Below are positions 20,168 through 63,516 of a stretch of DNA of 64,000 bases, piece by piece; the stretch's first letter is position 1, and every line of letters starts with the position of its first letter. Source of the DNA: Hyaloraphidium curvatum SAG 235-1 (lineage: Eukaryota; Fungi; Monoblepharomycota); assembly GCA_025558095.1 (NCBI GenBank), contig JAIVFI010000021.1:62001-126000 (forward strand), in the 5' to 3' direction. The notes beneath the pieces are model-generated. The model saw nothing but the letters and a program-made list of their open reading frames with translations. It was not told the DNA's origin and made no database searches. The position numbers were made by a program, and so were the translations under genes.

Positions 20168-20357
20168 GAGGAGCCCAGCAAACCGTAGAGAAGACGGGAA
20201 ACGGCTTCCGCTCGGGCGTGATGGCGGCCCGGAATGTGACTCGACACGCAACTGCGTGTCGATGCGGCGTCGCAAACGCGAGGCGCGCAGTTCCCCGCCC
20301 GGAGCCCCCCTCCCGTTGGCCGACATCTGCTCTAGCATCGCCCCGTAGCAGCCTACA

Positions 20358-21161
20358 ATGACGCGAAAAACAGCCGCGCTCGAGGCCGGTGCGTCTCCAC
20401 CGAGATTCGGGCACCGGCTCGACTTGACGCGTGTTCGCGTTGCCGTTGCCTCCCAATGCCTCCATACCTCTTCGGCTCGCTTCTGGACGTGTTGGCGCTT
20501 CTTTCCTTTGTGCTCCGTGCCCGGATACCAAAGCCACGCGGTATCTGCACAAAATGCAGCAAGCGGGAGGCCTTGACGCGACCATCCTCAACGCCCTGTT
20601 GGTCTGCCTCCTCTTCGGCGCAAGGGTTTCGGCTGAGGACCCGAATCTGCAGGACCATCAAGGATGCCGACGATGGCATGGTGCGATTGAGCCTCCCGGT
20701 TGAGAAGAAACACGCCAATACCGTTGGAACACTGCACGGCGGTGCGGAACCGCAACCTCTTGACGGATCTTGTCCCTGATCCATGAGCCAGGCGTCAGCT
20801 GCACTCTCGTCGACATTGCCGGGTCTCTTGCCATATCGAGCATGGGCGACAACTATCAGAAACACGTTTCGATCGGTGGGCTCGGTCGCTGTTATTGGCT
20901 TCGCTCAACTGAACCCCTGCAAAGACATCAACACGACGTTCCTGAAGCGTACGTCCCCCGAGAATGACCGCGAACTCAAGCTCTAACCACGCCGCAGCCG
21001 CACCGATCGGATCAACAATCACCGTCGTCTCCAAGGCAGATAAGGTTGGCAAGACGCTTGGATTCACCACCACCACGATCCTGAACGGGACAGACGTTGT
21101 GTGCCGAGGAAGCCATACCAAATACCTCTTCTTCCCGAAGCCAGACAAGTCGGACAAATGA
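20358..21161 (+). CDS. Acyl-CoA thioesterase 13 / PaaI hotdog-fold thioesterase, multi-exon
   Basis: HANTVGTLHGG..LVDIAGSLAI..VSIDINTTFL..KVGKTLGF..GSHTKY; start exon inferred. Confidence 0.85.
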
Positions 21162-21195
21162 TACCAAACATGTAGCCATTCCACATTCGCGAATT

Positions 21196-22752: not shown

Positions 22753-22900
22753 GTGAAGGATTCTCGAGGGAACGTAGAACGAGAGACCAATGGACGTGGC
22801 AACGAATGAAGTCGCTTGCCCTGGAGGGCAACTTCTCTTCCCAGGGGACATCATCTCTTCATACGATAAAGGTAGAATAACAAACGGGTCGACATCCACC

Positions 22901-23884
22901 TCAACCGGTGATTTCGAAAGTCGGCTTTTCGCCACTGGCACCACCCTCGACGGGAGCCCCGGCCTCGAGCTGCGGTCAAGATCCATCAGTGTCGCAAGTC
23001 CCGAGCGAGGCCGGCCAAACTGACCATCTTGAGAAGGCTTCCGAGGCTGCCAAAAGAGCTGCCACCGCCACCGCCACCGCCGCTGCCCATAAGCCCGCCG
23101 ATCAAGGACCCAAGGCCTCCTCCCGAACTTCCACCGCCGCCCCCTCCACCCATCTTGCCAAGGAAGCCACTAAGGGCGCTTCCGAGGCCACCGCCGGAAC
23201 CTCCGGATGCTCCAGGCATAAATGAGGCGAACTGGATGAATTCGCGGTACGTAATTGGCTTCCCACATCGCTCCAGACACACCCACTGGGTTGCTTCCGG
23301 CGCTCTGACTGAGTCTACCGCCGTACATCTGTTGGTACGGGTTGCCCGAAGGCGGCGGGCCGCCCATGGAAGGCATCATGGACGAGGCCGAGCCGAGAAG
23401 GGGGCCAAGCAGAGACTTCGCGCTGTCGAAGATGCCCAGTGCCTGCACGCCCTCCGGGGGGTTGGCCTTGATATCCTCCTGAATCTTGACCAGCTCCTCG
23501 CTGAGAACGCGATCCAATGGGGCGGCAAACAAGGCGTGGGAGGCAAGTAGCGCCCCGGTCATCACAAAAGACAAAAGGGTCGCGACGTAGTGCGGCAGCA
23601 AGGTGTGGGAGGCAGGTGGCGCCGGGGTCGTCGAAAAGGACCAAAAAGGTTGTGGTGCGACGGCGCGGCAAGGACGTGGAAGGCGAGGCAACGATGGAGC
23701 AATATCGTCAGCTTCCGTATCAGGCGGAACCAGGGTTGCGAACGCACTAGACCTCGGGAGCGCCAGTTTTGATTTCCTCGAGTGCCTTGGCGAACAGGTC
23801 GTTGCCGGCCTTCCGGCGCGTCAGTTCTCAAGCTGGAGCGTTGCTGGGGGAGCGACCTACAATTTGGACGGAACCGTCGGCCAT
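22901..23884 (-). CDS. Gly/Ser-rich low-complexity protein, multi-exon
   Basis: Spliced model MADGSVQI|AGNDLFAKALEEIKTGAPEVY|EELVKIQEDIK...GGGLGSLIGGLMGSGGG...|LEAGAPVEGGASGEKPTFEITG* with phase-compatible GT-AG introns; internal exon boundaries partly uncertain. Confidence 0.65.
23520..23650. repeat. Diverged ~60-bp tandem duplication inside an intron
   Basis: gcggcaaacaaggcgtgggaggcaagtagcgccccggtcatcacaaaagacaaaag vs gcggcagcaaggtgtgggaggcaggtggcgccggggtcgtcgaaaaggaccaaaaag. Confidence 0.75.
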
Positions 23885-24359
23885 TGTTGAGGTTGGTCGG
23901 TCCGGGAAAGACGACGAAGCACGGACCAATCCAGGCGCAAGCCTCCGCGGGTCGGACGGACCCTGAGGACCCCCAAACCGATCGACGAAGCTGTCGACTG
24001 GTAAATCTAGAAGCTCGTGCCAGTCATTCGGTGTCCCTTCTGCTCTTTTTTGATCGGTGAAACGTCGCGGCAAGTGCCCGCCACCCGTAGGAGCGGAAAG
24101 CGAGTCTACAAGGTGTGGATCCGGGGAGAAGCCCAGTTCGGCCAGTTCGGAATCCTTGATCGAGAGGTAGCAAAGGAAGAGCAATAGACTGAGATGGCAG
24201 CGCTACATTTTTGGCGAGGACCTCGCTTCCGTGAGAGATTCTCGAACAGCAGGCCCGTGGTGGGGGATCGATCGCGCACCGTCAGCGCCACCGCGGCCCC
24301 AACTTCCGTTGACCCCATAGACCGCCGCAGTTGCGGGACAAGACCATCGCGACGCGGCG

Positions 24360-26111
24360 ATGGCACCGAAATCCGCTAATGGCGCGGGTGTTTCGGGCCC
24401 CACCGCGTCCGCCGACGCGCAACCGGGAAGCGCGTCCCCCTCCCTCCTGGACTACATCCTGCTGCGTCGCCGCGTGCCGCCGGAGGCGCTATCCAACCTG
24501 AAAAACTACAAATACGCGGCCGTGGACTACTCCATCATGTCGAAATACGTTCTGAAAAAGTACTGGACGTGGCTCCTCGGCTTCATGCCAATGTGGCTGG
24601 CTCCCAACGCGATTACCCTCATCGGACTTCTCTTCATCATCGGAAACTGTGGCTTAGTGACGCTGTTGGACGGCCATCTGGACGGCGAAGGTCCCAGATG
24701 GCTCTATCTGAGGTGAGTTCGCTGGGGTACAATGTGGACTGGGGAGGCGGTCTCCTGGACATGTGGTGACCCCTTGTCCTGCCTTTCAGCCTTGCTTTCG
24801 GCCTTTTCGCCTACCAGTCAATGGACAACATTGATGGCGGACAAGCGCGAAGAACGGGTGTAAGTTTGGGCAGGTTTCAATCTCTGCGGCTGTTCAGTAA
24901 CGGCTCAACCGGATAGTCGTCGTCACCACTTGGGGAGCTGTTTGACCACGGGTGCGACGCGCTCAACGCAAGTGGGTCATTCTTTGGATCAGGTCACTTT
25001 CGAAAGTGCTGACCTGCAGTGACCAGCATTTGGCACGATTCTCCAGGCGTGCGCCATGTCCCTTGGCTTCACGTGGCGTGAGCTGTCTGCCGCTGTCCCT
25101 TGATCTCCGAGCACTTGACGTCCCTATCCGCAGGCACGCTTCTTCTTGTCGTGCTCACGACGGTGCCATTCTACACTTCTACCGCCGAGGAGTACCACAC
25201 CCACGTCATGTACTTCGGATTCATCAACGGTCCCGTCGAGGGCGTGCTTATTGGTGTGGTTTTGATGGTGGCGACATGGGTTGTTGGTGAGTTTCTTGAT
25301 GCAACTTGCGTCCACCCCCCTGATTGTTCTCTGTAGGACCTCAAGTCTGGCAGACGCCGCTGCCGTCCCTGCTGCCTGGTTTGGGCCTGCCGGAATGGTC
25401 CATCATCACGGACGCCATCCTTTTCCCCATGCTGGGGCTAGTGCTGTTCCAGCACATCCCTCTTTGGCAAGTCTTGGCCGCGATTCCTGTTCTGTTGTCA
25501 TCTGACCTCTTGTTGTGCCGCAGCTTTAACAACCTGTACCGTTCCCTTCCCGCGGAGCTCAGACGATCCCCACTGGCTGCAGCCTGGCAGATCTTTTGGG
25601 ACCACATCCCGCTCCTGCTCTTCCACTTTGCCTGCGGCTTGTGGACGTTTGGACCCGGATCAAACATGCTCGACCGACCCGGAACGAAGGGGAAAGGTCT
25701 CATTCTCTGGCTGGCGAGCGTCGGCATGGTCTTTGGCAGGGTTTGCGTGAGTTCCTCGACGGACTGTTCGGCACAGCCTCACCAAACTCGTCGCCGCAGA
25801 CGGAGATCATCGAGTGCTACTTGACGCAGATGCCGTTCCCCTTCTGGCGGATGGCGAGGCTGTCTGTACCTTTCTGGATCGGCGCTGCAGGAGCCTGGCT
25901 GGCGTGGGTAGTGCGCACTCGTCTCAATCTCATCGAAAGCTCAATGTTTGTCTACAGGCCAGACACCTTTGTGGCATGGGAAGGAACTTACCTTGCCGTG
26001 CTGTGTCTTTGGAGCTTGGCCATGTACCTCCGGTGGGCAACGGGCACAATCCAGGACTTCTGCGGCGAGCTTGGGATTATGTGCCTTCGTATCAAGCCAA
26101 AGGCCAAGTAG
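24360..26111 (+). CDS. Choline/ethanolamine phosphotransferase (CDP-alcohol phosphatidyltransferase, CPT1/EPT1 family), multi-exon
   Basis: LKNYKYAAVDYS, WLAPNAITL, DNIDGGQARRTG..SSPLGELFDHGCD signature, EEYHTH..GPVEG. Confidence 0.92.
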
Positions 26112-26213
26112 GCACAAAGTGTCTCGCAGCTAGAGCTACAGATGTGGCCTATTTGGGTTCATCCACAATAGAGCTCCCTTCGGACAAGCTCTCTCTCTGT
26201 CCAACAACATGGA

Positions 26214-27202
26214 TCAGCACGAAGCGTGAAGCCTGTGATCCTCGTTCTCCACCACCCATGCCATCGATCCCATGCTCCGCATCGACCCACGGCTCGACTT
26301 CACCGTAAGCTGCTCGTAGCTCGAAGCCCTGAGCGTGTCAAGCGAGCCAAAGGCATCGGCGGTCTCGCCGGCCTTGACGCCGATCGCGGGAAAGACCCAG
26401 CTCAACGCCTGCTTCCAGTAGGTCCAGGATTGTCCGTTGGTCCCTCCTATCACGTTCTCATCCTCCAAATTCATGACCGTCAGGATGTGAACCGCTTTTC
26501 TTTCCTCGGGGCTGGACGCAAGCGCCTCCCTGACAAAGGCAGCGGCTTCGAAAAGCAGAGGGGCCGAATCGGGGTTCAAGCTCATCAGAGCTCCAAAGGC
26601 GCCGATTTCTGCCTCGGTGGGAGGCCTGATTTGGTTGCCTGCGAGACCGACAGTGAGACGAATCGGTCAGTCCAGCGCAATCCGGTCCCACCCTCAGCCG
26701 TCTCAATCGCCCTGGCGTAGCAATCCAGAATAGCCTCCCTGACCACCTCGGTAATGAGCCCACCCCGTGCAGCCCTGAAGACCTTGAACTTGACGAAGTT
26801 GGCGACGTCCCTTGGCCTCGGATCCCCTTCGAGAAAGACCGACGGTGCCATCTTGGACATGATCTCGATCATGGTCTTGTCGCCACTCAGCCTGAACCAC
26901 TCGACAGCGTCTTGCACCCCTGGCGTGGAGCTGTCAGCGTCCGACCCCTCGCACGGTGCTCTCGGCTCCGAAGACACACCCGGCAAGGCTGCTCGCGCCC
27001 TCAGCCACCTCATTGCCATCATGCCCTTCTCCATCACGTCCAGGCCCGGTGCGAAGCGAGCGGAAACAACCTCGGTCCAACGCTCCATGAACTTGAGCAG
27101 AGTAACCTCGCTCAGTGACCCGGCATTGGTTGCCGCCTTCGAGGGCAGCGGCAAGGCCATCGGGGCCACCATTTGCGGCATCGGGTACGCAGGGGCTGCC
27201 AT
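26214..27202 (-). CDS. Hypothetical protein, 2 exons
   Basis: ORFs 26585-27202 and 26214-26585 can be joined through a short intron near 26640-26690; natural amino-acid composition. Confidence 0.55.
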
Positions 27203-38983: not shown

Positions 38984-40663
38984 TCACCACCTCCTCGTCT
39001 TCCTCTTCTTCTTGGCGGGCCCGGCCTGCCGCTCCTTCTGCTCCTTGCTCCCCGCCAGCAGCGCCCTCTGCACCGCCGACACCCTCCTCCTCCCCCTCTG
39101 CCGCTCCCCCACGGACCGCTCCTGCAGGAGCTCCTTCCACCCCGCAAAGTCCGCGTCCGAGAACCCGCCGGGCCTGATCGTGCGGAAGAAGGGCAGGAAC
39201 TCGCCGTGGTTGGGCGTCGCCAGGGCGACGCAGAAGACGGTCTCCATGGAGAAGCACTGCAGCGGGAGCAGCTCCTCGAGGTTCCAGCGCGAAAGCGGAC
39301 CCATGCCCGCGCCCCGCTCCGCGACCCACGCGTCCGCGAGCCGCGCGACGAACCCGGCAAAGTACCGCGGGAGGTGCCTCCCCCTGTCCACCGCCGCGAT
39401 GCACCTCTTGAGCTCCTCCGCCCCTTCGTCCCCGGGGTCCGCGAGCACCGCCGGCACCACGCTCCCCTGGAACAGGTCCGCCACCCTCGCCGCGGCCTCG
39501 AACCCGTGCCGGCGGTACCCCATCCCCAGCTCCGCCGCGTGCATTGCGATGCGCGCCAGACGCTCGTATCCCCCGGGCAGCGGGAAGTGCTCCCTCGTCG
39601 CGATGCCGCGGAGGATGTCGGCCGTGGGGGCGGCGTCGTCCTCGGCCTCCGAGTCGCTGTCGTCCCCGCGGATCTGGTCGGCGGCGGCCTCGACGATGGC
39701 GGCGATGGTGTCGGGGGCGACGGCGCCGGGGTCGCGGAGCAGCGGGAGGAGGAGGGCGGGGAGGCGGTCCGGCTGGAGGTGCCATGCGCGCACGGTCGAG
39801 AGAACCTGCCAGTACTGCGAGGCCGAGAAGCCCGGCACGGGGCCGGCGGTCGGTGCAAGGAGGGGCACGGGGAGCGGGTGGTGCGGGCGCAGCGAGTGCA
39901 GCAGGCCTTCGAGCTCGGGCGAGGCCGAGAAGAGCGGGAAGCGCCGGAGGAAGGCGGCCAGGTGGTCCGGCGGGGGCTCGTAGCGCCAGCGGTAGCGGTG
40001 CGACGACTCGGGGGCCCACAGCGAGCGGCCGAGCTCCAGGAAGGCGCGCATGGGGCCTTTGGAGAGGCGGCCGTCGAAGCGGGCGACGAGGTCGATGGCG
40101 CACTCGCGGAAGCGCGACGGGCCGGGCTCCGAGTACGAGGCGGGCTCGGACTCTGTCCAGCCGCAGCGGTACAGACGGGCGGCGAACTCGACGAGGAATG
40201 CGACGGCGTTCCTGCCCGCGGGGTCGAAGCCGGCCGCGTCGAGCACGCGGGCGGCGGCGGCGGGCACGGTCACGTCCGGCGGCGGGATGCGCGGCTCGGG
40301 GGCGTCCTCCACGTCCTCCCAGTACTCGCGCACGGCGGTGTGCGTGATCGGGTGCGGCGACGCCCAGAAGCCGCGGTGCAGCGGGTGCGCGCGGGCGGCG
40401 GCCTGCAGCTCGCGGAGGTCGTCGGCGAGGGCGTGGGCGCCGCCCGCCGCCAGCAGCGCCCGGAAGCGGGCATTCGCGTAGGCAACAACCAAACAACGCA
40501 TGCCGCGCGAGGCGAGCCGGGTGTCGAGGTACAGGTCGGGCAGCGCCGCGTGGTGCAGCACGCGGAAGAGCACCGCGGGCGGGAGCGCGGACAGCGCCCC
40601 GCAGCCCGGCGCGCCGGCCCGCGCCGTGTCGGCGGGCACCGTCGGCACAGGCATGGCGTCCAT
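38984..40663 (-). CDS. F-box-like protein (paralog 1 of head-to-head pair)
   Basis: ALSALPPAVLFRVLHH...LDTRLASRGMR; full-length similarity to 40863-42587. Confidence 0.75.
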   Translation of the reverse strand: MDAMPVPTVPADTARAGAPGCGALSALPPAVLFRVLHHAALPDLYLDTRLASRGMRCLVVAYANARFRALLAAGGAHALADDLRELQAAARAHPLHRGFWASPHPITHTAVREYWEDVEDAPEPRIPPPDVTVPAAAARVLDAAGFDPAGRNAVAFLVEFAARLYRCGWTESEPASYSEPGPSRFRECAIDLVARFDGRLSKGPMRAFLELGRSLWAPESSHRYRWRYEPPPDHLAAFLRRFPLFSASPELEGLLHSLRPHHPLPVPLLAPTAGPVPGFSASQYWQVLSTVRAWHLQPDRLPALLLPLLRDPGAVAPDTIAAIVEAAADQIRGDDSDSEAEDDAAPTADILRGIATREHFPLPGGYERLARIAMHAAELGMGYRRHGFEAAARVADLFQGSVVPAVLADPGDEGAEELKRCIAAVDRGRHLPRYFAGFVARLADAWVAERGAGMGPLSRWNLEELLPLQCFSMETVFCVALATPNHGEFLPFFRTIRPGGFSDADFAGWKELLQERSVGERQRGRRRVSAVQRALLAGSKEQKERQAGPAKKKRKTRRW

Positions 40664-40862
40664 TCTGCCCGCGCGGGCCGGTGATGGCGCGCCGGGGTTT
40701 GCGGTGATTGGACGCCGAGTTCGCTCTAAGTGGTCTAAGCGCGGGGGCTAGGACTTCTGGGTTGAGAGGTCATTCGCTCGATTTGTGTTAGGCCTCTCAA
40801 CCAGTTCGCTAATCACTGCCCACCCTGAATCAATCTCCGGCTCCCTCCCGCGCCGCACCACG
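40664..40862. promoter_or_regulatory. Putative bidirectional promoter between divergent F-box paralogs
   Basis: 199-bp, lower-GC spacer between two divergent ATGs; positional inference only. Confidence 0.4.
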
Positions 40863-42587
40863 ATGTCCGAGCACCGCTACCCCACGCGGTCGCGGGCCAA
40901 GCTCCTCCGCGCCGCCTCTCCCGCCCCCGCCGCGGCCCCTCCGCCGCCCCCTTTGGAGCCCGGCCCGCCGTTCGGCACGCTCTCCGTCCTCCCCGCCGAG
41001 CTGCTGCACCGCGTGCTCGCCTTCCTCCCGCCCTCATCGACCTACCTCGACCTCCGCCTGGCTTCCCGCGCCCTCCGCGCCCTCGCCGTCGCGCACCTCG
41101 AATCGCGCTGGCGGTCCTCGCTGGCCTCGCCCGACCCGACCGTGCTCCCCGACGACCTGCGCGAGATCCAGGCCGTCGCACGCCTGCATGCGGTGCACGC
41201 ACGGCACTGGGCCTCGCCCAACCCCGTCACGCACCGCACCGAGACGGGGGGCTACGGCACGGATCCCCTGGCCGACTGCGGACCCGCACCCCGGCCGGAC
41301 GTGACCCATCCCCCCGTCGCCGCCGCCATCCTGAGAAAATGCGGGTTCCAGCCGGAGGCCCCGGGCGGCGTGGGCATGCTCGTGGAGCTCGCGGCGCGGC
41401 TGTACGCGACCGCGTGGCACCACACCGAGCAGGGCTACAGCGGCACCCTCGCAAGGTCGAGGTACAGGGACAGGGCGATGGCGCTGGTGGGCGAGTTCGA
41501 CGGGTGCTTCGGGAGGAGGGGGATGCGGGCGCTGCTGGAGCTGGCGAGGCCGATGTGGGCGCCCGAGGGGAGCGGGTACGGCAGGAGGAGGGACCAGGAC
41601 GCCGCGTCTGCCTTGGTCGGGTTCCTGGGGCGGTTTCCCAAGTTTGTGGCGGATGCACAGGGGCTGGAGGCCGTGCTGCGCGGGTGCACGGGTTCGGGGT
41701 TCACCGCGAACCAGCTGTGGCTCACCCTGGCGGGCGTGCAGCGGTGGTCTCCGGAGGGCAGCGCGACGCATTTCGCACGCATGCTGGCCGACGCACCCGC
41801 CGTGGGGCCCGAGGTCGTCTCGCGCATCGTGCAGCAGACGGTGGGCGCCAAGCGCGCCGGGATCCACTCGACCGTGACCACGGGCGAGGACTGCGCCCTG
41901 TTCGCCGCCGCGAGAGACGCGCTCGCGGGCTTCGCAACCCGCGCCAACTTCCCCGGCGAGGGCGGGCTCGTCCGCCTCTCCCACATCGCGATGCTCGTCT
42001 CGGACACGGGGGCCGGGTTCCGCCGCCCCGGGCTGGGCATGGAGCGGTTCGCGGAAATGTTCGCCGAGATCGTAGCGCCCTGCCTCGACGGCGAGCCCGT
42101 TGAAGAGGCGGCGGAGGAGCTGCGGAGGTGCACGGCCGCGGTGAGGGAGATCCTCCACGGGACGGGGGGCCGCGTCGCGCCGCGGGTGCTCGGCGGGGCC
42201 GTCAGGGCCTACGGGAGCTTCGCCGCCAGGCTGCTCGACATCTTCGCCGCCCTCCCCCCGCCCGATCCGGACGTCCCCGCGCGGGGCGTCGCCCGCTTCC
42301 GCCCCGCGGACCTCTTCCCCGCCGCCGCCTTCACCTCCGACGCCATCTTCCATACCGTCTCCCAGACCGACGCCTGGCCCGCCCTCGCGGACCTGTGGCG
42401 GGGCAACCGCCCCGGCGGGGGCGCGTGGTCGCGCCCCGATTTCGGCACCTGGCGGGCGCAGGTGATGGACCTGGCCCCCGAGGTCAGGAAGGAGGTGAGG
42501 AGGAGGCTGCCGCTGCTGCAGGCGGCGCTGATGGGGGAGGAGCCGAGGGTCAGGGCGGTGGCGCAGGGGAGGAGGGGCAGGAGGTGA
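40863..42587 (+). CDS. F-box-like protein (paralog 2 of head-to-head pair)
   Basis: TLSVLPAELLHRVLAFL...YLDLRLASRALR; DDLREIQA and WASPNPVTH shared with paralog 1. Confidence 0.75.
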   Translation: MSEHRYPTRSRAKLLRAASPAPAAAPPPPPLEPGPPFGTLSVLPAELLHRVLAFLPPSSTYLDLRLASRALRALAVAHLESRWRSSLASPDPTVLPDDLREIQAVARLHAVHARHWASPNPVTHRTETGGYGTDPLADCGPAPRPDVTHPPVAAAILRKCGFQPEAPGGVGMLVELAARLYATAWHHTEQGYSGTLARSRYRDRAMALVGEFDGCFGRRGMRALLELARPMWAPEGSGYGRRRDQDAASALVGFLGRFPKFVADAQGLEAVLRGCTGSGFTANQLWLTLAGVQRWSPEGSATHFARMLADAPAVGPEVVSRIVQQTVGAKRAGIHSTVTTGEDCALFAAARDALAGFATRANFPGEGGLVRLSHIAMLVSDTGAGFRRPGLGMERFAEMFAEIVAPCLDGEPVEEAAEELRRCTAAVREILHGTGGRVAPRVLGGAVRAYGSFAARLLDIFAALPPPDPDVPARGVARFRPADLFPAAAFTSDAIFHTVSQTDAWPALADLWRGNRPGGGAWSRPDFGTWRAQVMDLAPEVRKEVRRRLPLLQAALMGEEPRVRAVAQGRRGRR

Positions 42588-46122: not shown

Positions 46123-46560
46123 TTGAGCGGGTGTTGTTTGTAGCAGTTTCAACGGTGCCAAGTCTTTGATTGCTGACGTGGCACGCCTTCGATCCACCGG
46201 GCCATGACGACGCCTGCACTGGCGTTTGCCCTGACACAGTTTGCCATCTAATTCACCCGTGAAGATAAAGGCTCGCCGCCTTGGAAGGAAGCAGAAGCTC
46301 GCCTGCCACGGCATGTCTCACATCCGCTGCACCCGTGCATTGTCCCTTATCGCTGCAACGAATTCCGGCAACATCCATCTAGTTCTGCGCGCTCCTGAAT
46401 GCTTTCCCTCGAAGGGGATTGCGGAAAGGTATGCCCGACGGCCGTGGATCCAGACCAGCAACGACAGCGGCATACACAGCCAAACGGCATGCCTCCGACG
46501 GGATCACCCGCCGGAGCGCCAACGGTGCGCCCAGGGCCTTTCCGTCGCCACGCACGCCGC

Positions 46561-49143
46561 ATGACTCCCGCGATGCGCGCGCTGCGGCCCCGCGTGGGGC
46601 CCCTGCTAGCCATCGCGGTCCTGTGCGCCGCGGTCCCTGTCGCGTACGCGATTTCGGGACTTCCCGCAGGGCTGGCGTCCCAGCTGGTTTCTTCCGAGAC
46701 CACCGTCGTCGATGTTTGTACGATTGACTCTGTAAGGGGCTTCGTGGTCAAGAAGTCGGGCACGCTGCTGTTCTGGAACGGCACAGGCCTGTCGACCTCG
46801 CTCGACCTCCTCGCAAACTCGTTGGAGCCTCTCCTGGACTCGGGCGAAAGCGGCTTCCTCTCCTGTCTCGCGACTTCGAACACCGTCTTTACCTTCTACA
46901 CAAGTCCGTTGCCTCGCTTGCGAGGGTGGCATCTCTGCTAACCGCTGGCGGCATTCGCAGCTACCAAGCAATTTGCTCTCCTGACCAAGTGGACCTTCGA
47001 CAGTGCCACCGGCATCACCAATCCCGCTTCAGAGGTGCGGTTGCTGACCTTTCCGGGCGTCTCGCGGACGAACCGTAAGTATCTGCTGCGCCGTACCTCG
47101 AATTGCCACTAAGGGTTGTTCGTTCCAGACAATGGCGGCGCCATGGCCTGGGACGGCACCGCCATCGTCATCTCCCGCGGAGACGTAGCATCGTGCGACG
47201 CCGGGGACAGCGCCGGGTGCGCGCTGGTGCAGAGCCTCGATTCGCAGTGGGGCAAGATCCTCCGCGTGGATCAGGCGGGCAACGGGCTCCCCGACAACCC
47301 GTACTGGGATGGGAACGCATCTTCGGTGCGGAGCACGGTGTGGGCCGTGGGTCAGCGGAACCCGTGGACGATGACATTCGATCCCAACAACCCATCGGAT
47401 CTGTTCATCTTTGACGTCGGAACAGTAGGCGCTCTACTTCAGCTCACCTTGCATTCGATCTGACGGGGCACGGTGGATTTGCAGCGCGACAAGGAGTGCG
47501 TCAAGAGGCTGACCAAAGGCGGCCAGGGCAACTACCCGTGCCTCGAAGGCACCAAGGACATGGGCAAATGCAGCTCGATGCTCACGCCGGCCAACGCATC
47601 CGTCGTGGTGTACGAGTATGACCACGCCGGCGGCGCATCGATCATCGGTGGCGCGTTCATGTCCCCGTCGCAGTACGGGCCGCAGTTCGCCAACGCTGTG
47701 CTCTTTGGCGACTGCAGCAAGGGCATCCTGAAGCTTGCCGCTCCGGGGTTCTCCAGCGTCGGACCGGCCGGCTCGGAGTCGTGCCCTACGAGGATCAAGG
47801 TCGCACCTAACGGCAGGGTGTGGATCCTCACCTTGTTCGACGGGATTTGGGTTTGAGCAATGCCGAAAATCCAAGTTTCCCTCTCATCGTGCGTCTTTCC
47901 AGGAGGTGACAGGCCCGGCCTTCACGACAACGATGGTAAGGTAGCTCTCGCTTTTGCGTCCCGTGGAAGGAAGATTCCTCACCGACTGTCCACTGCAGAC
48001 GTCGACGACCTCTGTCTCAACCACGTCGCTGACTCCGATCACCTCCACCTCCGCGACCACGCTCACGTCCTCGACATCCCTGACATCTACATCGCAGACT
48101 ACGCAGTCGATGATTACGCCAACGACCTCCACCGCCACGCAAAGCGCCACGCGCACGACCACGATCGCCCGCTGCGTGATTCCCACCTCCCGCGGCACCG
48201 TGCCGCCCCTCGTCCCCCCATTCCGCGCCCTCTCCTGGGCTAGCAGCTCCTCCAACCCCGCATGGACGTGCCGCCTCGACAACAGCCTCCCCTGCATCCG
48301 CAACGGCCGCCTGGTGGGCAACCGCCGCGGCGCGGCGCAGCCGATCCGGATCGGAGGGAGGCGGTACTCGCGCGGCTTTGGAATCCGCGGCAGAAGCACC
48401 GTCTCCGTCGACCTGGGGCGGAGATGCGGCAGCCTGTCGGTCGGGTTCGGTCTGGATGACAGCACACCGACGCTGGTTCCCCAGCTCGTGTTTTTCGTCG
48501 TCGCGGACGGGCGGACAGTGTTCACCAGCATGCCGTGGGTCGCATGCGCTTTTAGTGATTGCCCTTCTCACGCCTTCTGCGCGCACGCCAGGCGGAACCG
48601 GAATCATGGCGTCAGGTTCATCACCGTGTCCCTCGTTGGCGTGCGCAACCTGCGCCTCGTCACCCGCCAGACCTCCCCCGGAGTGCATAACGCGGCCTGG
48701 GTGGAGCCCCTGCTCGCATGGCAAGTCGATGCCTCGTCAGCCGTATGCACAGACATTGACGCCTCCGACCCGCCAGTGGTCCCAACTCACTCTACCTCCC
48801 CACCATCGAGCTCTCTCACTTCGGCTTCAACGGGCGCACCGCCGAACCCGGCACCCGCGTTCGCTTCCGTGCCTCGGCGCGGGACTACCTCTCCCGCCCC
48901 ATCCCCTCCGGCGTCTTTGCATGGCAGCTCTCCGTGGGAACGTGCACCCGCGCGGGATGCTCGATCGCGGGCGGGATTGCACGTTCGTCGGGCGCGCCGA
49001 ACGCAACGTTCGTGCTGCCGAGGAGGCTGGGATGCATGTGGTACCTCGTGGAGGTCGAGGTCGGCGACGGGTGCGGCGGACGGAACAGGGCGGTTTCGAG
49101 CCTCTTGGTGCCGAGCAGGGAGGGCGTATGCAGCTCTTTATGA
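46561..49143 (+). CDS. Secreted glucose/sorbosone dehydrogenase (PQQ-type beta-propeller) + Thr-rich linker + NPCBM/NEW2 + Ig/PKD-like domain, multi-exon
   Basis: Signal peptide; WGKILRVDQAGNGLPDNPYW..VWAVGQRNPW..FIFDVG; NPCBM IRIGGRRYSRGFGI..GLDDS..VVADG; C-terminal VRFRASARD..FAWQL after a GC-AG intron at 48721-48776. Confidence 0.8.
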
Positions 49144-50663: not shown

Positions 50664-52449
50664 TCATGTGCTGGAAGAAGCAACCTTGACGGAGTCTGGT
50701 CCGATGTAGACGTCCATCCCGGGCTTCAGTGCCGCGAACCTCTCGAACATGGATGCATCGTCGGCGCTGTCGATGCGGAGCTCTCGGAGGGCAGGGAAGG
50801 ACCCCGGCAGTGTAAACATGCCCTCGAGAAACACGGTCGTGAACGTGCACCTGCCCGACAATCGCAGCACCGTGAGCTCGGGCAGCTCTGCGATCGCCCG
50901 CCAGTCGTTCGCGTCGATCGGCCCGGAGACGGCAAAGTCGACGCGCAGGGTCTGCACGCGCGGCGCCCAGGAGAGCAAGAAAGGCAGGCCGTCGCAGTCT
51001 TCCGCAAATTACAGCTCGCGGAGGTCCGCCCTGGGGCCCAAGGCCGCAGGATCGGGGAACGGCTGGCCGTCGCTCGGGTCTAGCGAGACCCCGCGCAACA
51101 CGAGGGATTCCAGGCAGGAGCGGACGTTCAGAGCTTGCAGGATGCTGGAAACCCCGTGCGAATCGAAGTACAAGTTCTCCAGGTAGAGGACCTTTGCTGG
51201 AAGCAGGCGCACGAGCTTCAGGAATAACCACGGATCGACGTAAACCCCTTCGCGAAGCCCGAGGGACAGGTGCTCCAGGCTCGCAAGTCCGCGCACAATG
51301 CTCTTTGTCGCCCTTTCCGTGGTCTTCGGATCCAGCAGCATCTGGAGGCGCTTGACCCTGGCCAGGCCCGGCAGGAGGCTGGCGAGGTTGGCCGGCGCTT
51401 TGTAGCTGCCGTCCCGTTCAGGCGGAACGACGCCCAGGTGTTCCAAGGGCCAGGTTCGCATGCTCGCGAGGAGGGCGGGTGCCTCCAGATCCGTGCAACC
51501 GCAGCCGCGAACCACGACGCCCCGACCGTCAGCAGCGGGACGAGTTCCGCGCGTCTGCAGGTGCAAGAGAAGGGCGTCGTGTTCCGGAAGTCCGCCGGGG
51601 GCGCGGCGCGCAGAGGCCGGGGGGAGGGCGCTGGAGGTCAAGCTTGCGCGCACGGAGAAGGAGCGCGACAAGCTCCAACACATTGCGAAGAATTACTTTC
51701 GCGGCGTCGGTGATCCTATCGACCATTCATTGCCCGGCTGGCAAACTCCATAGTGGACTGTATCTTTCGGAAGGCAACATCGGACATCAGTGTGACCAGC
51801 AGGACGATCTTGGTCTCTGGCCCGGCGGGGAAGAGGCGTCCAAACTCCGCCACGAACGGCAGAGCCCCAGGAGGCGGTGCCGTCCTGGACTTGAGCAGGT
51901 CGCGGATCTGCTCGACGGACGCATTGATCCACTCGCTCTCCTGGACGACGCTGTCATTGTAGACGTCCGGCGGAATCGAGTTCCCTGCGGCCGCCCACAG
52001 CCGGTCCGCCTCCTCCGACCCAAGATGCTGCCGCATGACGGCCACGACGTGCCGGTCGATCTTCTGGGCGTAGTTGTCCTGGCCCAGCTGCCTCCGCAGC
52101 GCCGGCCCGTACTCCGACCCGGCCATGTCCACGAGACTGAGTTCGCCGCCGACTTGCCGCCCGCCCGCGTCCCGGACGACGACCGAACACATTAGCTGGG
52201 CCCGCGAGGACGTCGGATTGTTGGGCGTCGCCTTCACAAACCCAAGCAGCAAGCGGACGAGCTCCAGCGTGCGCATCATGTCGCGGAAGGGGCAGGTGCG
52301 CGCGACACGTGGCGTTGCTGGCGTTGCCCGGCGCGACGAAGTGCAGGATGCGGTCCACGATCTCCACGGGCAGGCGCGGTGTGAGACGTCGCGCGGGGGC
52401 TTCCTCCGGTTTGGGAGCGCGACCGTGCTGGCTGTGACGCGGCGGCATG
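50664..52449 (-). pseudogene. Disrupted F-box/LRR gene
   Basis: F-box RLPVEIVDRILHFV..NAT | RAELVPLLTVGASWFAAAVARIWRHP split by a 754-bp insert; frameshift near 51480; in-frame TAA at 51009-51011 within LRRs (LEHLSL, LESLVL, LRELRI). Confidence 0.75.
51716..52280 (-). pseudogene. Partial divergent kinesin motor domain (C-terminal half) inside the F-box pseudogene
   Basis: Switch I-like KATPNNPTSSRAQ, switch II LSLVDMAGSE, ESEWINAS, KIVLLVT, STMEFAS; no P-loop present. Confidence 0.8.
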
Positions 52450-52653: not shown

Positions 52654-53526
52654 TCAAGGCGGAGACCCGAAGCCGTTGAGCGCCGTCGCCAGCCCAGCGG
52701 GCTCCCCCTCGTACGTCGCATCCCGATACATCTCCCCCAGCACCTCCAAGCATTCCGCAATCGCCCCCCGCGACCCATCCCCCACGTTCGCCGCCGCCAC
52801 CCCGCATCCGGGCACCCCGGGGTTGACGTCGCACTGCCCGTTCCGCCGCATCGAAACCTGCCACGCCTCCGCGCATAGCACGTGTACGTCACTGCGCTCC
52901 GCGATCTCCCGCAGCCGTGCCCGAGTCCTCCCCTGGGTGTCCAGGTCGTCGTAGCCGTACCACATCAGCGCCGCCGCCCCCCGCGCAACGCAGGTGTCGA
53001 ACACGTCCAGGAACGACACGCCGGATGCGTTGGCATCGAAGGGCGTGTACGGGTCGAGGAAAACAAAGTCGCCCGGGCCGATGGACGCGTCGGCGGCGAA
53101 GCACGCGAGCGCGTCGCCGACCACCGTCTCCACGCGGTCCTTTGACAGCCGCAGTTCCTCCCTGGCGAACCGCGCCACGTCCTCCAGCGCATCCGGTTCC
53201 AGATCGTGGAACCGGAACGCCGTGCCCGTGTCGCGCAGCAAGGCCATCGCGAGCCCGGGGGAGCCGAGGTGGCGCCCCGTCTCCCCCGTTCTTTCCCGCT
53301 CCAGCGCCTCCAGGTACGCGTCCCCCCTACCCGGGAACCGTGCCTGCATTTCCAGGAACCGCACGGCGCCGTACCGCACCCGCGGGGCGGCGAGGTCCAG
53401 GGCATGAACCGCGCGCGCCGAGTTGGTTTCGAGGTACCGCCGCGGCGGAGGCTCGCGGGAGAGGACGGCGAGGAGGGGCCAGTGTTTCCAGACGTCGCCG
53501 ATCTCCCCCGCGTGCGCGTACGGCAT
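52654..53526 (-). CDS. RlmJ/YhiR-like SAM-dependent methyltransferase, bacterial type, intronless
   Basis: HAGEIGDVWKH, YLETNSA, LGSPGLA, FHDLEP, FVFLDPY, LMWY match the RlmJ motif order (HAGNFADVxKH, YxDTHAG, YPGSP, LIDPPY, xxWYP). Confidence 0.75.
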   Translation of the reverse strand: MPYAHAGEIGDVWKHWPLLAVLSREPPPRRYLETNSARAVHALDLAAPRVRYGAVRFLEMQARFPGRGDAYLEALERERTGETGRHLGSPGLAMALLRDTGTAFRFHDLEPDALEDVARFAREELRLSKDRVETVVGDALACFAADASIGPGDFVFLDPYTPFDANASGVSFLDVFDTCVARGAAALMWYGYDDLDTQGRTRARLREIAERSDVHVLCAEAWQVSMRRNGQCDVNPGVPGCGVAAANVGDGSRGAIAECLEVLGEMYRDATYEGEPAGLATALNGFGSPP

Positions 53527-58890: not shown

Positions 58891-59652
58891 ATGGACGGCG
58901 ACATCGTCGCGCTCGAAGACGTCTAGAAGATCCTCTTGAGCACGGATGCTTGCGTCCCGGGGTACAAGGCGCTGGTGATGACGGCGTTCATCAACCTCCG
59001 CACCCTGGAGCGGGAACAGGAGCTGCTCCGGCGCGAGGACGACGGCGGAGATCCCGATCACCGCGCGTCGTCGATCGGACGCGGAGGAGGAGATTGCTGC
59101 CGCGAGGAAGAAGAAGCAGGTACTGGTGCGCAAGGCCTTCGACGTCGGCGAGGCACACGCGTACATGGATATATTGAGGGAGGTTCTGCTTCTGGAACAG
59201 CCGATCAAGCTCGAGAGCGTGGTCCTGGTGAGGCATCTCTAGATCCACGTGATGTCGGGGAGGATGGGCCAACCCGGCACCGCACCTTCAAAGCCACGCT
59301 CGAGTTCTTGAGCTCCAAGTTCCGGAATTCTTGAGCTCCAAGTTCCGGAAGGCCAAGGACAAGGCGGCGTTCATGTTCAAGAACAACACGTGAGACTGGC
59401 GCACTGTATTGTGAGCAGGAACTCATCCCGCGCATTCCACGCTCGCACAGGCGCGACACATACTTTGTGCCGCGCAACCTCCGCGAGCGGTACGTGGCGT
59501 ACCTCGTCGGCAAGGTCGACGGGGTCGCCGAGGCGCAGAGGGAGGCCAAGCGCATGTTTGCCGGCCGCGCCGTCAAGTCAGGAGGCGTCGCCAACGTCGC
59601 GAGTAAGAAGAACAGGGAACGAGTTCGGACCCGCCCTCATATCCACGCATGA
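58891..59652 (+). pseudogene. Decayed intronless ORF of unknown origin
   Basis: Coding-like segments (AFINLRTLEREQELL; YMDILREVLLLEQPIKLESVVL; TYFVPRNLRERYVAYL) broken by TAG stops and frameshifts. Confidence 0.55.
59305..59350. repeat. Perfect 23-bp tandem duplication causing a frameshift
   Basis: TTCTTGAGCTCCAAGTTCCGGAA twice. Confidence 0.92.
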
Positions 59653-60935
59653 GCCCGCACCCCCCGCTCACGGAACGCCGTGAAGAGCGCATAGCTGTCC
59701 CCCAGCGTCGGGCAGTTCTCCCTCGGCTTGCACCATTCGGGCCCGATGACCTCGTAGATGTCGCTGTGGTGCTCGAAGAAGAACTCGTGCACCTCCAGCT
59801 GCCCGTTGCGGGAGGCGTTCCCCCCGGGGAGCAGCTCCAGGAGGCGCGCCGCAAGCGGGTTCTCCACCGTGGGGGTGTCGATGTCCAGCTTGAAGACGAC
59901 GTACACGTCCGGGCTGCCGGAAACGCCGCGCCGATCGCCCGGGGACGGCTTAGATCCGAGCATCCGGTGCAGGTGGCCCACCCTGCCCCGCAGCGCCGCG
60001 ATCGCGTTGTACTCCTTCCCGTCCGCGTCGGCCCACGCCGCCGGCACCGGCATCCTCGCCACGGGCACGTTGAAGTACTGGTACCCGCCCAGCAGCTCCG
60101 CCGGCACGTCCTTGAAAACCCGCTCCGGCCGGTGCTCCTTGGCCTCCCACATCGCCATGGAGGAGATCTCCATGCCGAGTGTTTCGTACACGCCCGGAAA
60201 CAGGCCCTGCGAGGTTCCCCACGACTCCTTCGGCGCGCCGTTGGAAGCGTAGAGCGTCGCGCCGAGGTCAAAGTACAGCGCCGTGCGCGGGCGCGGCGGT
60301 ACGGGGACGTCCCGCAGCGCGCCGTCCGTCCGCCGGTCGAAGAGGAGGTAGCTCGTGTCGATGAGGCCCAGCCGGGTGCGCGAAAAGCAATGGTACGGGT
60401 GGCGCAGGTGCCCGACCAGGGGTTCAATGAAAGCCCCGACCTCTGTCCCCTCTCCCTGGCCATCCACAACCGAGTAGACGAGCTTCGACATGACAGGGTG
60501 CTCCCCAGCGTCCTCCGTCCACAGCGGATCCCAGTCCCCCCCTTCTCCGCCGCGCTGATCGGCCACAACCCCCTTCATCCACTGGCTCATGTTCCACGGC
60601 ATCTCCCACGGCATCCTCCTCCCCACGAACTCGAGCATCTCGCCCGCCCGCGCCGCATCGCGATCCCGCCACAGCCGCCTGCACACGGGCAGCTTGTCCG
60701 GTTCCCGGGCCAGCTTCGCGTATTCTTCCGACGCGACGAACGATGTCCATTCGCGCTCCCAAGTCGAGGGGACGTAACGCGCGAAGCGCCACTCGGGCGC
60801 GACGAGTGGCGGGTCGGAGGTCCGCGGGCGCACGGTGGGGGGAGCGGGCGGGCCCGCGGCGGGGATCAGGAAAGCCGCCGCGGGGAGCAGCACGAGGAGT
60901 GCCGCGAGCGCCATCATGAGGCGATGGGGCTCCAT
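59637..60935 (-). CDS. Membrane-anchored FkbM-like putative methyltransferase (paralog 1)
   Basis: N-terminal TM; ALYFDLGAT, MWEA, YVVFKLDIDT..E, VHEFFFEHH, RGVRAHAW. Confidence 0.7.
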   Translation of the reverse strand: MEPHRLMMALAALLVLLPAAAFLIPAAGPPAPPTVRPRTSDPPLVAPEWRFARYVPSTWEREWTSFVASEEYAKLAREPDKLPVCRRLWRDRDAARAGEMLEFVGRRMPWEMPWNMSQWMKGVVADQRGGEGGDWDPLWTEDAGEHPVMSKLVYSVVDGQGEGTEVGAFIEPLVGHLRHPYHCFSRTRLGLIDTSYLLFDRRTDGALRDVPVPPRPRTALYFDLGATLYASNGAPKESWGTSQGLFPGVYETLGMEISSMAMWEAKEHRPERVFKDVPAELLGGYQYFNVPVARMPVPAAWADADGKEYNAIAALRGRVGHLHRMLGSKPSPGDRRGVSGSPDVYVVFKLDIDTPTVENPLAARLLELLPGGNASRNGQLEVHEFFFEHHSDIYEVIGPEWCKPRENCPTLGDSYALFTAFRERGVRAHAWI

Positions 60936-61231
60936 CGGCCCGTTTCGTGCCTGGGGTTGTTTGAGGATTTCGTTTCCGGCCCAGCCGCCTCCCACCGTCC
61001 CTCAAGGACGCAGGACGACCACTGCCCATCCCACGTCGGATTCCGATTGGACCTCCCGAGAAAGGATGAGATGGATCGGAAAGGCAGTTTCGTGACCGTT
61101 GCGGATGCGCCGTGTGCGGACAGTTATGATGGAAGTCGGACCGCCTTGGAGACCAATGTCGCTCCGACACACCACGCATACCACGAACTACAGTCGACAG
61201 ATGACAGAGCAAGCCAGCAGCGCGCCCTCCC

Positions 61232-62569
61232 TCACACCCACGCATGCGCCCGCACACCCCGCTCCCTGAACGCCTTGAAAAGGGCGTAGCTGTCCGCGAG
61301 AGGACGGCAGCTTTCCCTTGGAATGCACCACAGAGGCCCGATCACGTCGAAGATGTTTGTGTGGTGCTCGAAGAAGAACTCGTGCACCTCGAGCCCCCCG
61401 CCGCTGGAGGCGTTGCCCCTGGGGAGCAGTTCCAGCAGCCGCGCCGCCAAAGGGTTCTCGATCGACGCCGTGTCGATGTCCAGCTTGAAGACCACGTACA
61501 CCTCGGGGCTCCCGGTGACACCCCGATGCTCGCCTCCCGGCATGGTGGCGCGGTCCGTCCCGAGCATCCGGCGTAGCTCGTCGAGCTTGCCCCGCAGCGC
61601 GGCGATCGCATTGTACTCCATGCCGTCCTTGGCGGCCCAGGGTTCCGGCGCCGGAATCCGCGCCACGGGCACGTTGAAGTACTGATAGCCCCCGAGCACC
61701 TCGGCAGGCACGTTTGCAAAGACCTCGCCCGGCTTGTGCTCGCTCGCCTCCCACATCGTCATGGACGAGAAGGGGATGCCGAGGCTGCGGTACATGCCCG
61801 GGAACCACCCCTGCGAGGAACCCCAGATGTCCGCCTCGGCGCTGGGGTCGGGGAAAAGCGTCGCGCCGAGGTCGAAGTACAGCGCCGCCCGCGGCCGCGG
61901 GGGAACCGGGACGCCATCCGAGCCTTTCGAGGGGTCCGTTCGCCGGTCCAGGATGAGGTAGCTCGTGTCGAGGACCCCGTGAACGTCTAACGTGAGGTGG
62001 CCGGCCATGACACCCGTGGCGCTGCAGTGGTACGGGTGACGCAGGTGCCCGACAAGAGGTTCGATAAAGGCCGCGACCTCCATCTCTCCTCCCTGGCCGT
62101 CCTCGATCGCGTAGACGAGCTTGGACATGACGCGGTGCTCCGCCGTGTCCCTCGTCCACAGCGGCTCCATCGCCTCTGTCCGCGGAACGTAAACCGGCCC
62201 CTCCAACCACGCGCTCAGGTTCCACGATGCTCCGCCGGGCATCCTCCGCCCCACGAACTCGGCCGCTTGCCGCGCTTTGGCCATCTCGCGCGGTCTCCGC
62301 ATCCTCGCGCAAACGTGCAGCCCGTCCGGCTCGATTCTCATTAGCCGCACGAACTCGTCCGAATTGGCCCACGCGGTCCATTCGCGCTCCCACGCCGACG
62401 GGATGTAGCGCACGAACCGCCATTGCGGCGCGCGGGGGATGATGTCCGCCGGGCGGGCGCACGAAGCGGCGGGCGCCGGAGCGTCCGCGGGGGCCCGCAG
62501 CACCGAACAGGTGGAGAGCAGCACGAAGAGCGCCGCCCCGAGAGCCGGGAGAGTGCCGTGGCGCCACAT
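61232..62569 (-). CDS. Membrane-anchored FkbM-like putative methyltransferase (paralog 2)
   Basis: Same motif set as paralog 1, with long near-identical stretches (FIEPLVGHLRHPYHC; GGYQYFNVPVAR). Confidence 0.7.
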   Translation of the reverse strand: MWRHGTLPALGAALFVLLSTCSVLRAPADAPAPAASCARPADIIPRAPQWRFVRYIPSAWEREWTAWANSDEFVRLMRIEPDGLHVCARMRRPREMAKARQAAEFVGRRMPGGASWNLSAWLEGPVYVPRTEAMEPLWTRDTAEHRVMSKLVYAIEDGQGGEMEVAAFIEPLVGHLRHPYHCSATGVMAGHLTLDVHGVLDTSYLILDRRTDPSKGSDGVPVPPRPRAALYFDLGATLFPDPSAEADIWGSSQGWFPGMYRSLGIPFSSMTMWEASEHKPGEVFANVPAEVLGGYQYFNVPVARIPAPEPWAAKDGMEYNAIAALRGKLDELRRMLGTDRATMPGGEHRGVTGSPEVYVVFKLDIDTASIENPLAARLLELLPRGNASSGGGLEVHEFFFEHHTNIFDVIGPLWCIPRESCRPLADSYALFKAFRERGVRAHAWV

Positions 62570-63516
62570 GGCCGCTTTCCGGCGCGATGCTGGCCGTTGG
62601 TCCGATGGGGCAATCGGGGGTCGCCACGGTGGTCCCACGGGCGGCCTACTGACTGGCGGCGGATTATGCGCTCACCCCGCACAACGCCCAATGCAGAGCA
62701 GGCGGGCTTCAAGGCGGGCATTTCAGTAGCTGCGATGTACAACGGGATTCTTCTGGACGCACTGGACAGGACGCAGCCGATGGGTCCACTTTTCCAGACC
62801 AACGGCGCCAATGTCCAATTAACTAGGAGCTCACACTTTGCTCTTGAGAGAATCCTGGCCTCAAACGAGCAGAAAGGGAGAGAAGCGCGATTCGACGGCC
62901 GCATCCGGGGAAGCATGGACCTTGCCTGGGTCCTCGGGCCAGAATTTGAACTCGGGTTTCTCCCGCAGGATGGCGAGAAACTTGGCGGCGCGAGAAGGGT
63001 GATGACGGCCCGGTATCGGCACGAGGATCTGAAACGTTGGCACGTCGGCCTCTAACGGCCTCTATCGCTTGGGAGGCGAGCTTCGTGCGGCGATGTTTGA
63101 TCTCTCGGACGGGACGTGAGCGACGTACAACCCGACGATCGGGAGCGAGCACCGGACGAAATGCTCCTGGCCTTGGGCTTGGACACTGGAGTAGCGGCGA
63201 TCGGTTCCGCGGAAACGATTGTGCTTGGGGCGCGGTGAAGAGTTCAGCGGAAAGACACGTCAGAGCTCGCGGTGATGATTAGGGTCCCGTTCTATCCATC
63301 GAGGTCGCAAATCACATGGGATCAATCAATGTGAAATCCATAGTTATCTGTATCCGCATTGGAACTGCTTCTCGCTCAGGAGCGCGAGTGGCTGCGGAGT
63401 TTCCAAAGGGGCTCGGGCCACCCGCGCCGCCTCCGTCGGCCACAACAACAGACCACGCGGCCCGAATCCCAAACACCTCTCCGCCCCATCTCCGACCGCC
63501 GGCCGCACCGGGCACC

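What the first reader, a model, noticed from the sequence alone, without database searches (positions are those of the whole stretch)
51555..52308. 754-bp foreign insert with a divergent kinesin fragment splits an F-box domain; possible giant-virus origin
Seen: removing 52308-51555 (minus strand) restores an F-box reading ILHFVAPGNASNAT-RAELVPLLTVGASW. The insert encodes the intronless second half of a kinesin motor (TPNNPTSSRAQ, DMAGSE, long loop-11 insertion, ESEWINAS, STMEFAS) with no P-loop. Knowledge: canonical switch I is NxxSSRSH; from memory, TPNNPxSSR with DMAG and a long loop 11 occurs in nucleocytovirus kinesins, and endogenous NCLDV DNA has been described in zoosporic fungi. Inference: a captured piece of viral or other compact-genome DNA.
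Basis: partly seen in the sequence, partly recalled or inferred. Interest (0 to 1): 0.82.

Follow-up and report, generated by a model that had tools for sequence, protein, structure and literature searches.

The report
Giant-virus-type kinesin relic in fungal intron
A dead half of a motor-protein (kinesin) gene, most like the unusual kinesins of giant viruses, sits inside an intron-like stretch of a broken fungal gene and was likely copied there from a related sequence elsewhere in the same genome, a probable fossil of a past giant-virus infection rather than a working new system.

Summary
The segment is real: read contigs cross both junctions without differences. It starts GT, ends in a pyrimidine tract plus CAG, and has host-intron-like ends. 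It is best read as an intron swollen by a ~655-bp piece, not an insert that broke an exon. The F-box/LRR-like host gene is dead anyway (frameshift, premature stop).

The piece encodes the second half of a kinesin motor. Its switch-I motif occurs in 52 viral contigs; 6 of 6 searchable carriers encode the giant-virus capsid. Outside that motif it also matches this viral class better than canonical kinesins (60 of 60 against 3), with the same long loop 11, missing loop-12 motif and stop right after helix 6. No close relative exists in the protein libraries, and the trees are not decisive.

The immediate source is likely internal. A probably transcribed relative in the same organism is 90-95% identical, differs mostly at silent sites, and carries 1,274 extra bases between two parts of the insert. 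GC content is host-like and the window has no viral hallmark genes.

Verdict: a secondarily dispersed, inert relic of a giant-virus-type kinesin. The scan had not noted it before.

The parts
52309..52448 (-). Exon 1 of a decayed F-box/LRR-like host gene (ATG at 52448; F-box-like helices 1-2)
   Evidence: Sequence; aligns with the start of a neighbouring Pfam F-box-like protein; no Pfam hit of its own
51555..52308 (-). 754-nt GT..AG-bounded segment (predicted intron, swollen by the captured piece); splicing not observed
   Evidence: both junctions crossed by unspliced X1 contigs
52283..52308 (-). Host-intron-like 5' end (GT donor, 69% pyrimidine, 4% A); the inner boundary is approximate
   Evidence: compared with three RNA-confirmed introns
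51716..52282 (-). C-terminal half of a divergent, giant-virus-type kinesin motor (helix 3, switch I, switch II, 58-aa loop 11, helices 4-6, stop); no P-loop
51676..52069 (-). Part matched at about 90-95% by two X1 contigs from a related locus (29 differences and 2 gaps in 312 nt; 6 differences in 112 nt)
51670..51675 (-). Six letters that stand where the related contig has 1,274 letters (a deletion here or an insertion there; direction not known)
   Evidence: table 5
51628..51669 (-). 42-nt distal piece matched to the same related contig, 1,274 nt further along; lies in an imperfect hairpin spanning about 51629-51677
   Evidence: hairpin z-score -3.35, 1 of 200 shuffles as stable
51555..51627 (-). 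Host-intron-like 3' end (66% pyrimidine, ends in a pyrimidine tract and CAG), not matched by the related contig
50664..51554 (-). Rest of the host gene (LRR-like), with a frameshift near 51475 and a premature TAA at 51011-51009
   Evidence: LRR_14 E=0.0023; Atlas look-alikes include F-box/LRR clusters; sequence covered by read contigs

Best explanation
The 754-bp segment is likely an intron of a now-dead F-box/LRR-like fungal gene, swollen by a ~655-bp piece that was likely copied from a resident, probably giant-virus-derived kinesin locus elsewhere in the genome; the piece holds only the second half of the motor and is predicted to be inert.

Steps:
(1, inferred) A nucleocytovirus carrying a TPNNP-type kinesin left DNA in this fungal lineage. 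It either stayed long enough, or was GC-rich enough, to look host-like.
(2, shown in read contigs) At least one related copy exists at another place, and it is probably transcribed.
(3, inferred) Parts of such a copy, non-contiguous in the relative, were pasted into a short (~100-nt) intron, most likely during error-prone double-strand-break repair with a template jump. No target-site duplication beyond a 2-bp AC, no terminal repeats and no poly(A) are seen.
(4, shown) The host gene carries a frameshift and a stop, so neither the splice product nor read-through gives a full protein, and the kinesin half lacks the P-loop.
For: - Intron-like ends and GT/CAG boundaries.
- Both junctions are present in read contigs.
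- Related X1 contigs at 90-95% identity; one has 1,274 letters between the two matched parts and runs on unlike the window.
- Differences to the relative are enriched at silent sites: 12 of 23 changed codons synonymous, against an expected fraction of 0.25-0.30, P=0.005-0.02. The frame was under purifying selection for much of the divergence.
- Motif scan: 52 viral contigs, 19 named as giant-virus MAGs; P-loop pattern in 48 of 52 ORFs; NCLDV capsid in 6 of 6 searchable carriers, of 10 asked.
- Shared architecture: loop 11 of 58 aa, against 51-57 aa in 27 of 34 measurable viral proteins. The loop-12 motif is absent in the query and in all 106 TPNNP-type proteins, present in 4 of 4 canonical ones.
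- With the search motif left out, 60 of 60 TPNNP-type motors score above the best of 3 canonical ones. The helix-4-to-end block beats 200 of 200 shuffles.
- The best trees place the fragment on the TPNNP side.
Against: - No close relative anywhere: best identity about 37% on core columns; library searches were empty or gave an artefact.
- A profile of the viral region after switch II scored the query at only -0.2 bits, with at least 8 of 1000 shuffles higher.
- The beta8-helix-6 block is no closer to viral than to canonical kinesins (mean 26.7 against 23-31).
- AU tests do not reject placing the fragment next to the canonical group (p 0.37, 0.20, 0.36), the branch is long, and only 3 canonical kinesins were in the trees.
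- All 'TPNNP-type' comparators were selected on the motif.
- No viral hallmark among 60 window ORFs scanned, of 104 candidates.
- A pre-existing intron was not shown in paralogues, and no spliced joint was seen.
- The related contig has a 1-nt gap in the kinesin frame, so it is not itself an intact donor.
Confidence: 0.6

Rival explanations
1. The whole 754 bp arrived as one captured fragment that happened to supply GT and AG ends, creating a new intron by double-strand-break repair (intron gain from virus-derived DNA).
For: Clean phase-preserving boundaries and a 2-bp AC on both sides. Intron gain by DNA capture during NHEJ is a published model (PMC3020277, passages).
Against: The first 26 and last 73 nt look like host intron sequence, and the last 73 nt are not matched by the related contig. 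No direct repeat longer than 2 bp was found at the ends.
Confidence: 0.12
2. The kinesin is a fast-evolving, degenerate host kinesin family, not of viral origin, and the likeness to viral kinesins is convergence or long-branch attraction; the piece was duplicated within the genome.
For: Host-like GC and GC3. A related copy is in the organism's own reads. AU tests are non-significant. The helix-6 region is as close to canonical kinesins. Atlas nearest clusters are eukaryotic kinesin fragments, top score 0.90.
Against: Five-residue switch-I signature, helix-3 register, long loop 11, aromatic residue before the helix-4 'IN' and loss of the loop-12 motif are all shared with capsid-bearing viral contigs. 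The profile search returned 19 proteins, none with a eukaryote name (only the top 7,994 candidates were scored).
Confidence: 0.15
3. The kinesin-like sequence is cargo of a transcribed transposable element (Helitron-, Pack- or retro-type) that dispersed pieces of it, whatever its ultimate origin.
For: At least two copies exist. The relative is absent from annotated-protein collections although neighbouring genes are present, as expected for repeat-masked DNA. There is a hairpin near the 3' end of the piece.
Against: No terminal inverted repeats, LTR, target-site duplication or poly(A) at either set of boundaries. No second copy in the 64-kb window. No transposon domain in the ORFs scanned.
Confidence: 0.1
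4. Assembly chimera or contamination.
For: The best read holder may be the assembly's own sample, and only short-read contigs were laid.
Against: Contigs from two coded studies match the window's own version: X1 across both outer junctions, X2 across both inner joints, with 0 differences.
Confidence: 0.03

Closest known systems
Deep-branching Nucleocytoviricota kinesins (PMC8407384 and PMC11915834, passages read); here the TPNNPxSSR class found in IMG/VR and metagenome contigs, nearest L122, L172, L139
   Same: Switch-I signature, long loop 11, no loop-12 motif, motor ending right after helix 6, intronless
   Different: Only the second half, with no P-loop; about 20-25% overall identity; much shorter helix-4-to-beta-8 region; sits in a fungal intron-like segment. 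The passages I read do not describe these motifs.
Endogenous giant-virus DNA in fungi: Mycodnaviridae in zoosporic fungi (PMC13533422, section 6 and passages); 1.5-Mb GEVE of Rhizophagus irregularis (10.1101/2023.04.17.537115, passages); fungal NCLDV fossils (PMC7017919, listing and one term search)
   Same: Giant-virus-type gene in an otherwise fungal, intron-bearing contig with host-like GC, as described for lone capsid genes in three isolates
   Different: A kinesin rather than capsid or polymerase (the word 'kinesin' had 0 hits in the main text of the first two); a sub-genic fragment secondarily moved into a host gene; no hallmark genes nearby
Eroding GEVEs, e.g. Euglena gracilis (PMC12455990, passages)
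   Same: Duplication, truncation and residual transcription of viral genes in a host genome
   Different: No contiguous viral region was seen here; it can only be inferred from the related contigs
Capture of DNA fragments at double-strand breaks and NHEJ intron gain (PMC3020277, passages)
   Same: Inserted fragment without transposon ends, inside GT..AG boundaries
   Different: No direct repeat longer than 2 bp, and the ends look like an older host intron

Membership tests
Kinesin motor superfamily | Switch I and switch II motifs and the C-terminal half of the motor fold | tested here: met
   E=0.0019, below the curated cut-off; top rows are kinesin motors, best Z 8.8, rmsd 2.6 A, 135 aligned
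Kinesin motor superfamily | P-loop and N-terminal half needed for ATPase activity | tested here: not met
   Absent from the frame; no other piece elsewhere in the window by tblastn with full-length viral kinesins
TPNNP-type giant-virus kinesins | TPNNPxSSR switch I | tested here: met
   52 viral contigs carry it. Circular, since it was the search motif
TPNNP-type giant-virus kinesins | Long loop 11, loss of the loop-12 motif, motor ends after helix 6 | tested here: met
TPNNP-type giant-virus kinesins | Closer similarity than to canonical kinesins outside the motif | tested here: met
   60 of 60 above the best of 3 canonical; small control set; the beta8-helix-6 block alone does not discriminate
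TPNNP-type giant-virus kinesins | Nests within the clade in a phylogeny | tested here: inconclusive
   Best trees put it on the viral side, but p-AU 0.37, 0.20 and 0.36; long branch
Giant endogenous viral element | Viral hallmark genes, gene-dense intron-poor region or shifted GC at the locus | tested here: not met
   Ordinary fungal genes in 60 ORFs scanned; no GC shift
Giant endogenous viral element | Donor locus elsewhere lies among viral marker genes | not testable with these tools
   No whole genome is held; the related contigs cannot be read beyond their loose ends
Spliceosomal intron | GT donor, pyrimidine tract, YAG acceptor, phase-preserving | tested here: met
Spliceosomal intron | Removed from RNA | tested here: inconclusive
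   No joint listed; only low-depth unspliced contigs, which may be DNA or pre-mRNA
F-box proteins | F-box domain match across the two exons | tested here: inconclusive
   No Pfam hit for either piece; exon 1 resembles a neighbouring F-box-like protein, exon 2 adds nothing over shuffles; the joined peptide was not scanned against Pfam
Transposon-borne gene fragment (Helitron, Pack-type, retrocopy) | Element ends: TIR, TSD, CTRR end, LTR or poly(A) | tested here: not met
   a hairpin is present but without a CTRR end

The most novel reading that the evidence does not exclude
This fungus keeps a transcribed family of giant-virus-type kinesins, either in a persistent resident virus or as a domesticated host gene with at least one intact member. 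The relic would then mark the first fungal host of the TPNNP-kinesin viruses, and possibly an intron built from viral DNA.
Probability: 0.15. Interest if true: 0.75.

Novelty: new member of a known kind. Interest (0 to 1): 0.42.

Why it matters
Giant-virus kinesins are known almost only from metagenomes, without hosts or functions. A copy fixed in a fungal genome would tie this divergent motor class to a fungus-infecting virus lineage. It also points to a findable donor locus in a culturable organism, where an intact copy could be tested. It shows in miniature how endogenous viral DNA erodes and spreads into host genes. The locus itself is most likely without function.

Tried and rejected
- Whole-genome search for the donor: no genome held.
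- Direct searches with the fragment: none among longer or similar-length proteins, none in viral contigs. One hit among 1.84 billion representatives was a repetitive partial mollusc model matching only switch I-II and was rejected.
- PDB sequence search gave only weak kinesin hits (E>=0.08).
- Foldseek found nothing at E<=0.001 in PDB or BFVD. The single-sequence model was poor (pLDDT 44); the alignment-based one reached 83.
- No RNA holder is on record as RNA. X1 is only guessed to be RNA, though it shows three spliced joints nearby. Contig depths (160 and 57 for the relative, 3-5 for this locus) cannot rank expression and were not used as evidence.
- A helix-3-like peptide after the stop codon is not significant (9 of 150 random segments as good).
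- A 19-nt likeness between the start of the kinesin piece and exon 2 is common in this window (4 other sites as good or better).
- A 31-nt match of a deep X1 contig at 52141-52171 was treated as chance.
- No candidate product of this locus is in the protein collection by exact look-up.
- The canonical-kinesin control stayed small (3-4 viral canonical genes, plus Pfam and PDB scores), so placement among cellular families is left open.
- Literature: 7 searches listed no report of a giant-virus-type kinesin in a fungal genome or of these motifs. Six supplementary files of PMC13533422 were unreadable, and bioRxiv supplements are closed.

Full report
1. What is there. On the minus strand a reading that begins at ATG 52448 runs into a 754-nt segment (52308-51555), and it resumes in frame after the segment is removed. 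The segment begins GT and ends in a pyrimidine tract and CAG. Its first 26 nt (69% pyrimidine, 4% A) and last 73 nt (66%, 10% A) resemble three introns that run X1 shows as spliced nearby (55-70% pyrimidine, 7-9% A), and they differ from the kinesin part (48%, 17% A). The host gene is broken apart from the insert: the frame shifts near 51475 and a TAA lies at 51011-51009. The downstream part is LRR-like. The F-box call is plausible by recalled pattern but was not confirmed by Pfam or by comparison with two neighbouring F-box-like proteins. The window holds ordinary fungal genes, such as Opi1, thiolase and a subtilase, and no viral hallmark among the 60 of 104 candidate ORFs scanned. I did not determine the organism.

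2. It is not an assembly error, as far as short-read contigs can show. Two coded runs from two studies hold the stretch. X1 contigs cross the left junction (36 nt on the exon side) and the right junction with no differences, and an X2 contig crosses both inner joints. These runs may be the assembled strain. No spliced joint for this segment was listed, but cover is thin, so this says nothing either way.

3. The inner piece is half a kinesin motor. The frame 52282-51716 has switch I, switch II, a long loop 11 and helices 4-6, followed at once by a stop, and no P-loop. Pfam gives E=0.0019. An alignment-based model (pLDDT 83) matches the C-terminal halves of solved kinesin motors best (Z 8.8, rmsd 2.6 A, 135 residues). 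No close relative was found in the protein libraries.

4. Its class. The switch-I signature occurs in 52 IMG/VR stretches, 19 named as giant-virus MAGs. These are long intronless ORFs, 48 of 52 with a P-loop pattern. Six of six searchable carriers, of ten asked, encode the NCLDV capsid. In 39 of 54 distinct members the protein ends 199-262 residues after the motif (170 in the window), and loop 11 is 51-57 aa in 27 of 34 measurable members (58 in the window). Because these were selected on the motif, I tested the rest. None of 106 TPNNP-type proteins has the canonical loop-12 motif, nor does the query, while 4 of 4 canonical ones do. Summing three blocks that exclude the motif, all 60 TPNNP-type motors with a short tail score above the best of 3 canonical kinesins; the signal comes from helices 3 and 4, not from beta8-helix 6. 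The helix-4-to-end block beats all 200 shuffles.

Results against this reading: a profile of everything after switch II scored the query barely above shuffles. Three trees put the fragment on the viral side on a long branch, but none rejects the alternative (p-AU 0.37, 0.20, 0.36). For one search, 2 of 27 representatives were dropped as unalignable. For one search, 16 of 91 rows were dropped for long tails and 21 for missing anchors before dereplication. The canonical control is only 3-4 virus-borne, conventional kinesins. Viral ancestry is therefore likely, not proven. Deep-branching viral kinesin clades are in print (PMC8407384 and PMC11915834, passages), and so is giant-virus DNA in zoosporic and other fungi (PMC13533422, section 6; 10.1101/2023.04.17.537115, passages).

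5. The immediate source is probably inside the organism. X1 holds two further contigs that are related to the insert but not identical. One (1,897 nt) matches 51676-51987 with 29 differences and 2 gaps, then has 1,274 other letters, then matches 51628-51669, then runs on unlike the window. The other (1,699 nt) matches 51958-52069 with 6 differences and runs on for about 1.6 kb; its loose end still reads as diverged but homologous codons. Of 23 changed codons, 12 are silent, against an expected share of 0.25-0.30 (P 0.005-0.02). This count uses 27 of the 32 listed differences: two after the stop and three beside the 1-nt gap were left out. So the kinesin frame was under purifying selection for much of the split. 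The first contig has a 1-nt gap within that frame, so it is not an intact gene either. GC and GC3 of the fragment equal those of the host exons; three of the environmental TPNNP contigs are also 64% GC, so composition does not date the transfer. The related contigs could in principle come from a co-resident virus in the culture rather than from the chromosome.

6. How it most likely arose. Inferred: a giant virus left a TPNNP-type kinesin locus in this lineage, and copies diverged and decayed. A ~655-nt piece, made of two parts that are non-contiguous in the relative and joined over six unmatched letters inside an imperfect hairpin, was pasted into a short host intron. The absence of terminal repeats, a real target-site duplication or poly(A) favours capture during double-strand-break repair (model in PMC3020277, passages) over transposition. 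Whether the host gene died before or after is unknown; the fragment's frame is still open over 188 codons while the host gene has two lesions. Shown: the segment, its junctions, its intron-like ends, the relative, the lesions and the missing P-loop. Not shown: splicing, the pre-existing intron, the donor's surroundings, and the direction of the 1,274-nt difference.

7. Verdict. Real, and the viral hunch is largely right about ancestry, but the locus is an inert, second-hand relic inside an intron-like segment of a pseudogene. It is a new member of a known kind (endogenous giant-virus DNA in fungi). The worthwhile lead is the unseen donor locus. Seven literature searches listed no report of such a kinesin in a fungal genome; unread supplements could hold one. 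Earlier scan notes had nothing on this sequence or place.

Noticed in passing
window 52654-53526 (-): Intronless 290-aa gene just upstream. Its start recalls bacterial RlmJ-type SAM methyltransferases (recalled, no call); no Pfam or NCBIfam hit, singleton cluster. A possible horizontal acquisition.
   Followed up: partly
window 46399-49140 (+): Secreted-looking gene with glucose/sorbosone dehydrogenase (GSDH) and NPCBM domains, a bacterial-type combination, interrupted by introns.
   Followed up: partly
window 38987-40747 (-) and 40752-42584 (+): Two divergently oriented, intronless, mutually similar F-box-like genes, each a singleton cluster.
   Followed up: partly
window 59640-61001 (-) and 61235-62671 (-): Tandem pair of similar ORFs with no Pfam or NCBIfam match.
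   Followed up: no
window 7000-27000: About 20 kb with lower GC (mostly 0.54-0.65, against 0.63-0.79 further on) and lower GC3, yet holding ordinary host genes.
   Followed up: no
L001-L201 (IMG/VR and metagenome loci): A large class of giant-virus kinesins with a C-terminal motor, a fixed TPNNP switch I, loop-11 insertions from about 50 to several hundred residues and no loop-12 motif. Distinct from the conventional viral kinesins of L202-L204. I found no paper describing these features.
   Followed up: partly
window 52926-53038: A deep X1 contig matches about 110 nt of the upstream gene at under 90% identity, suggesting another related copy elsewhere.
   Followed up: no
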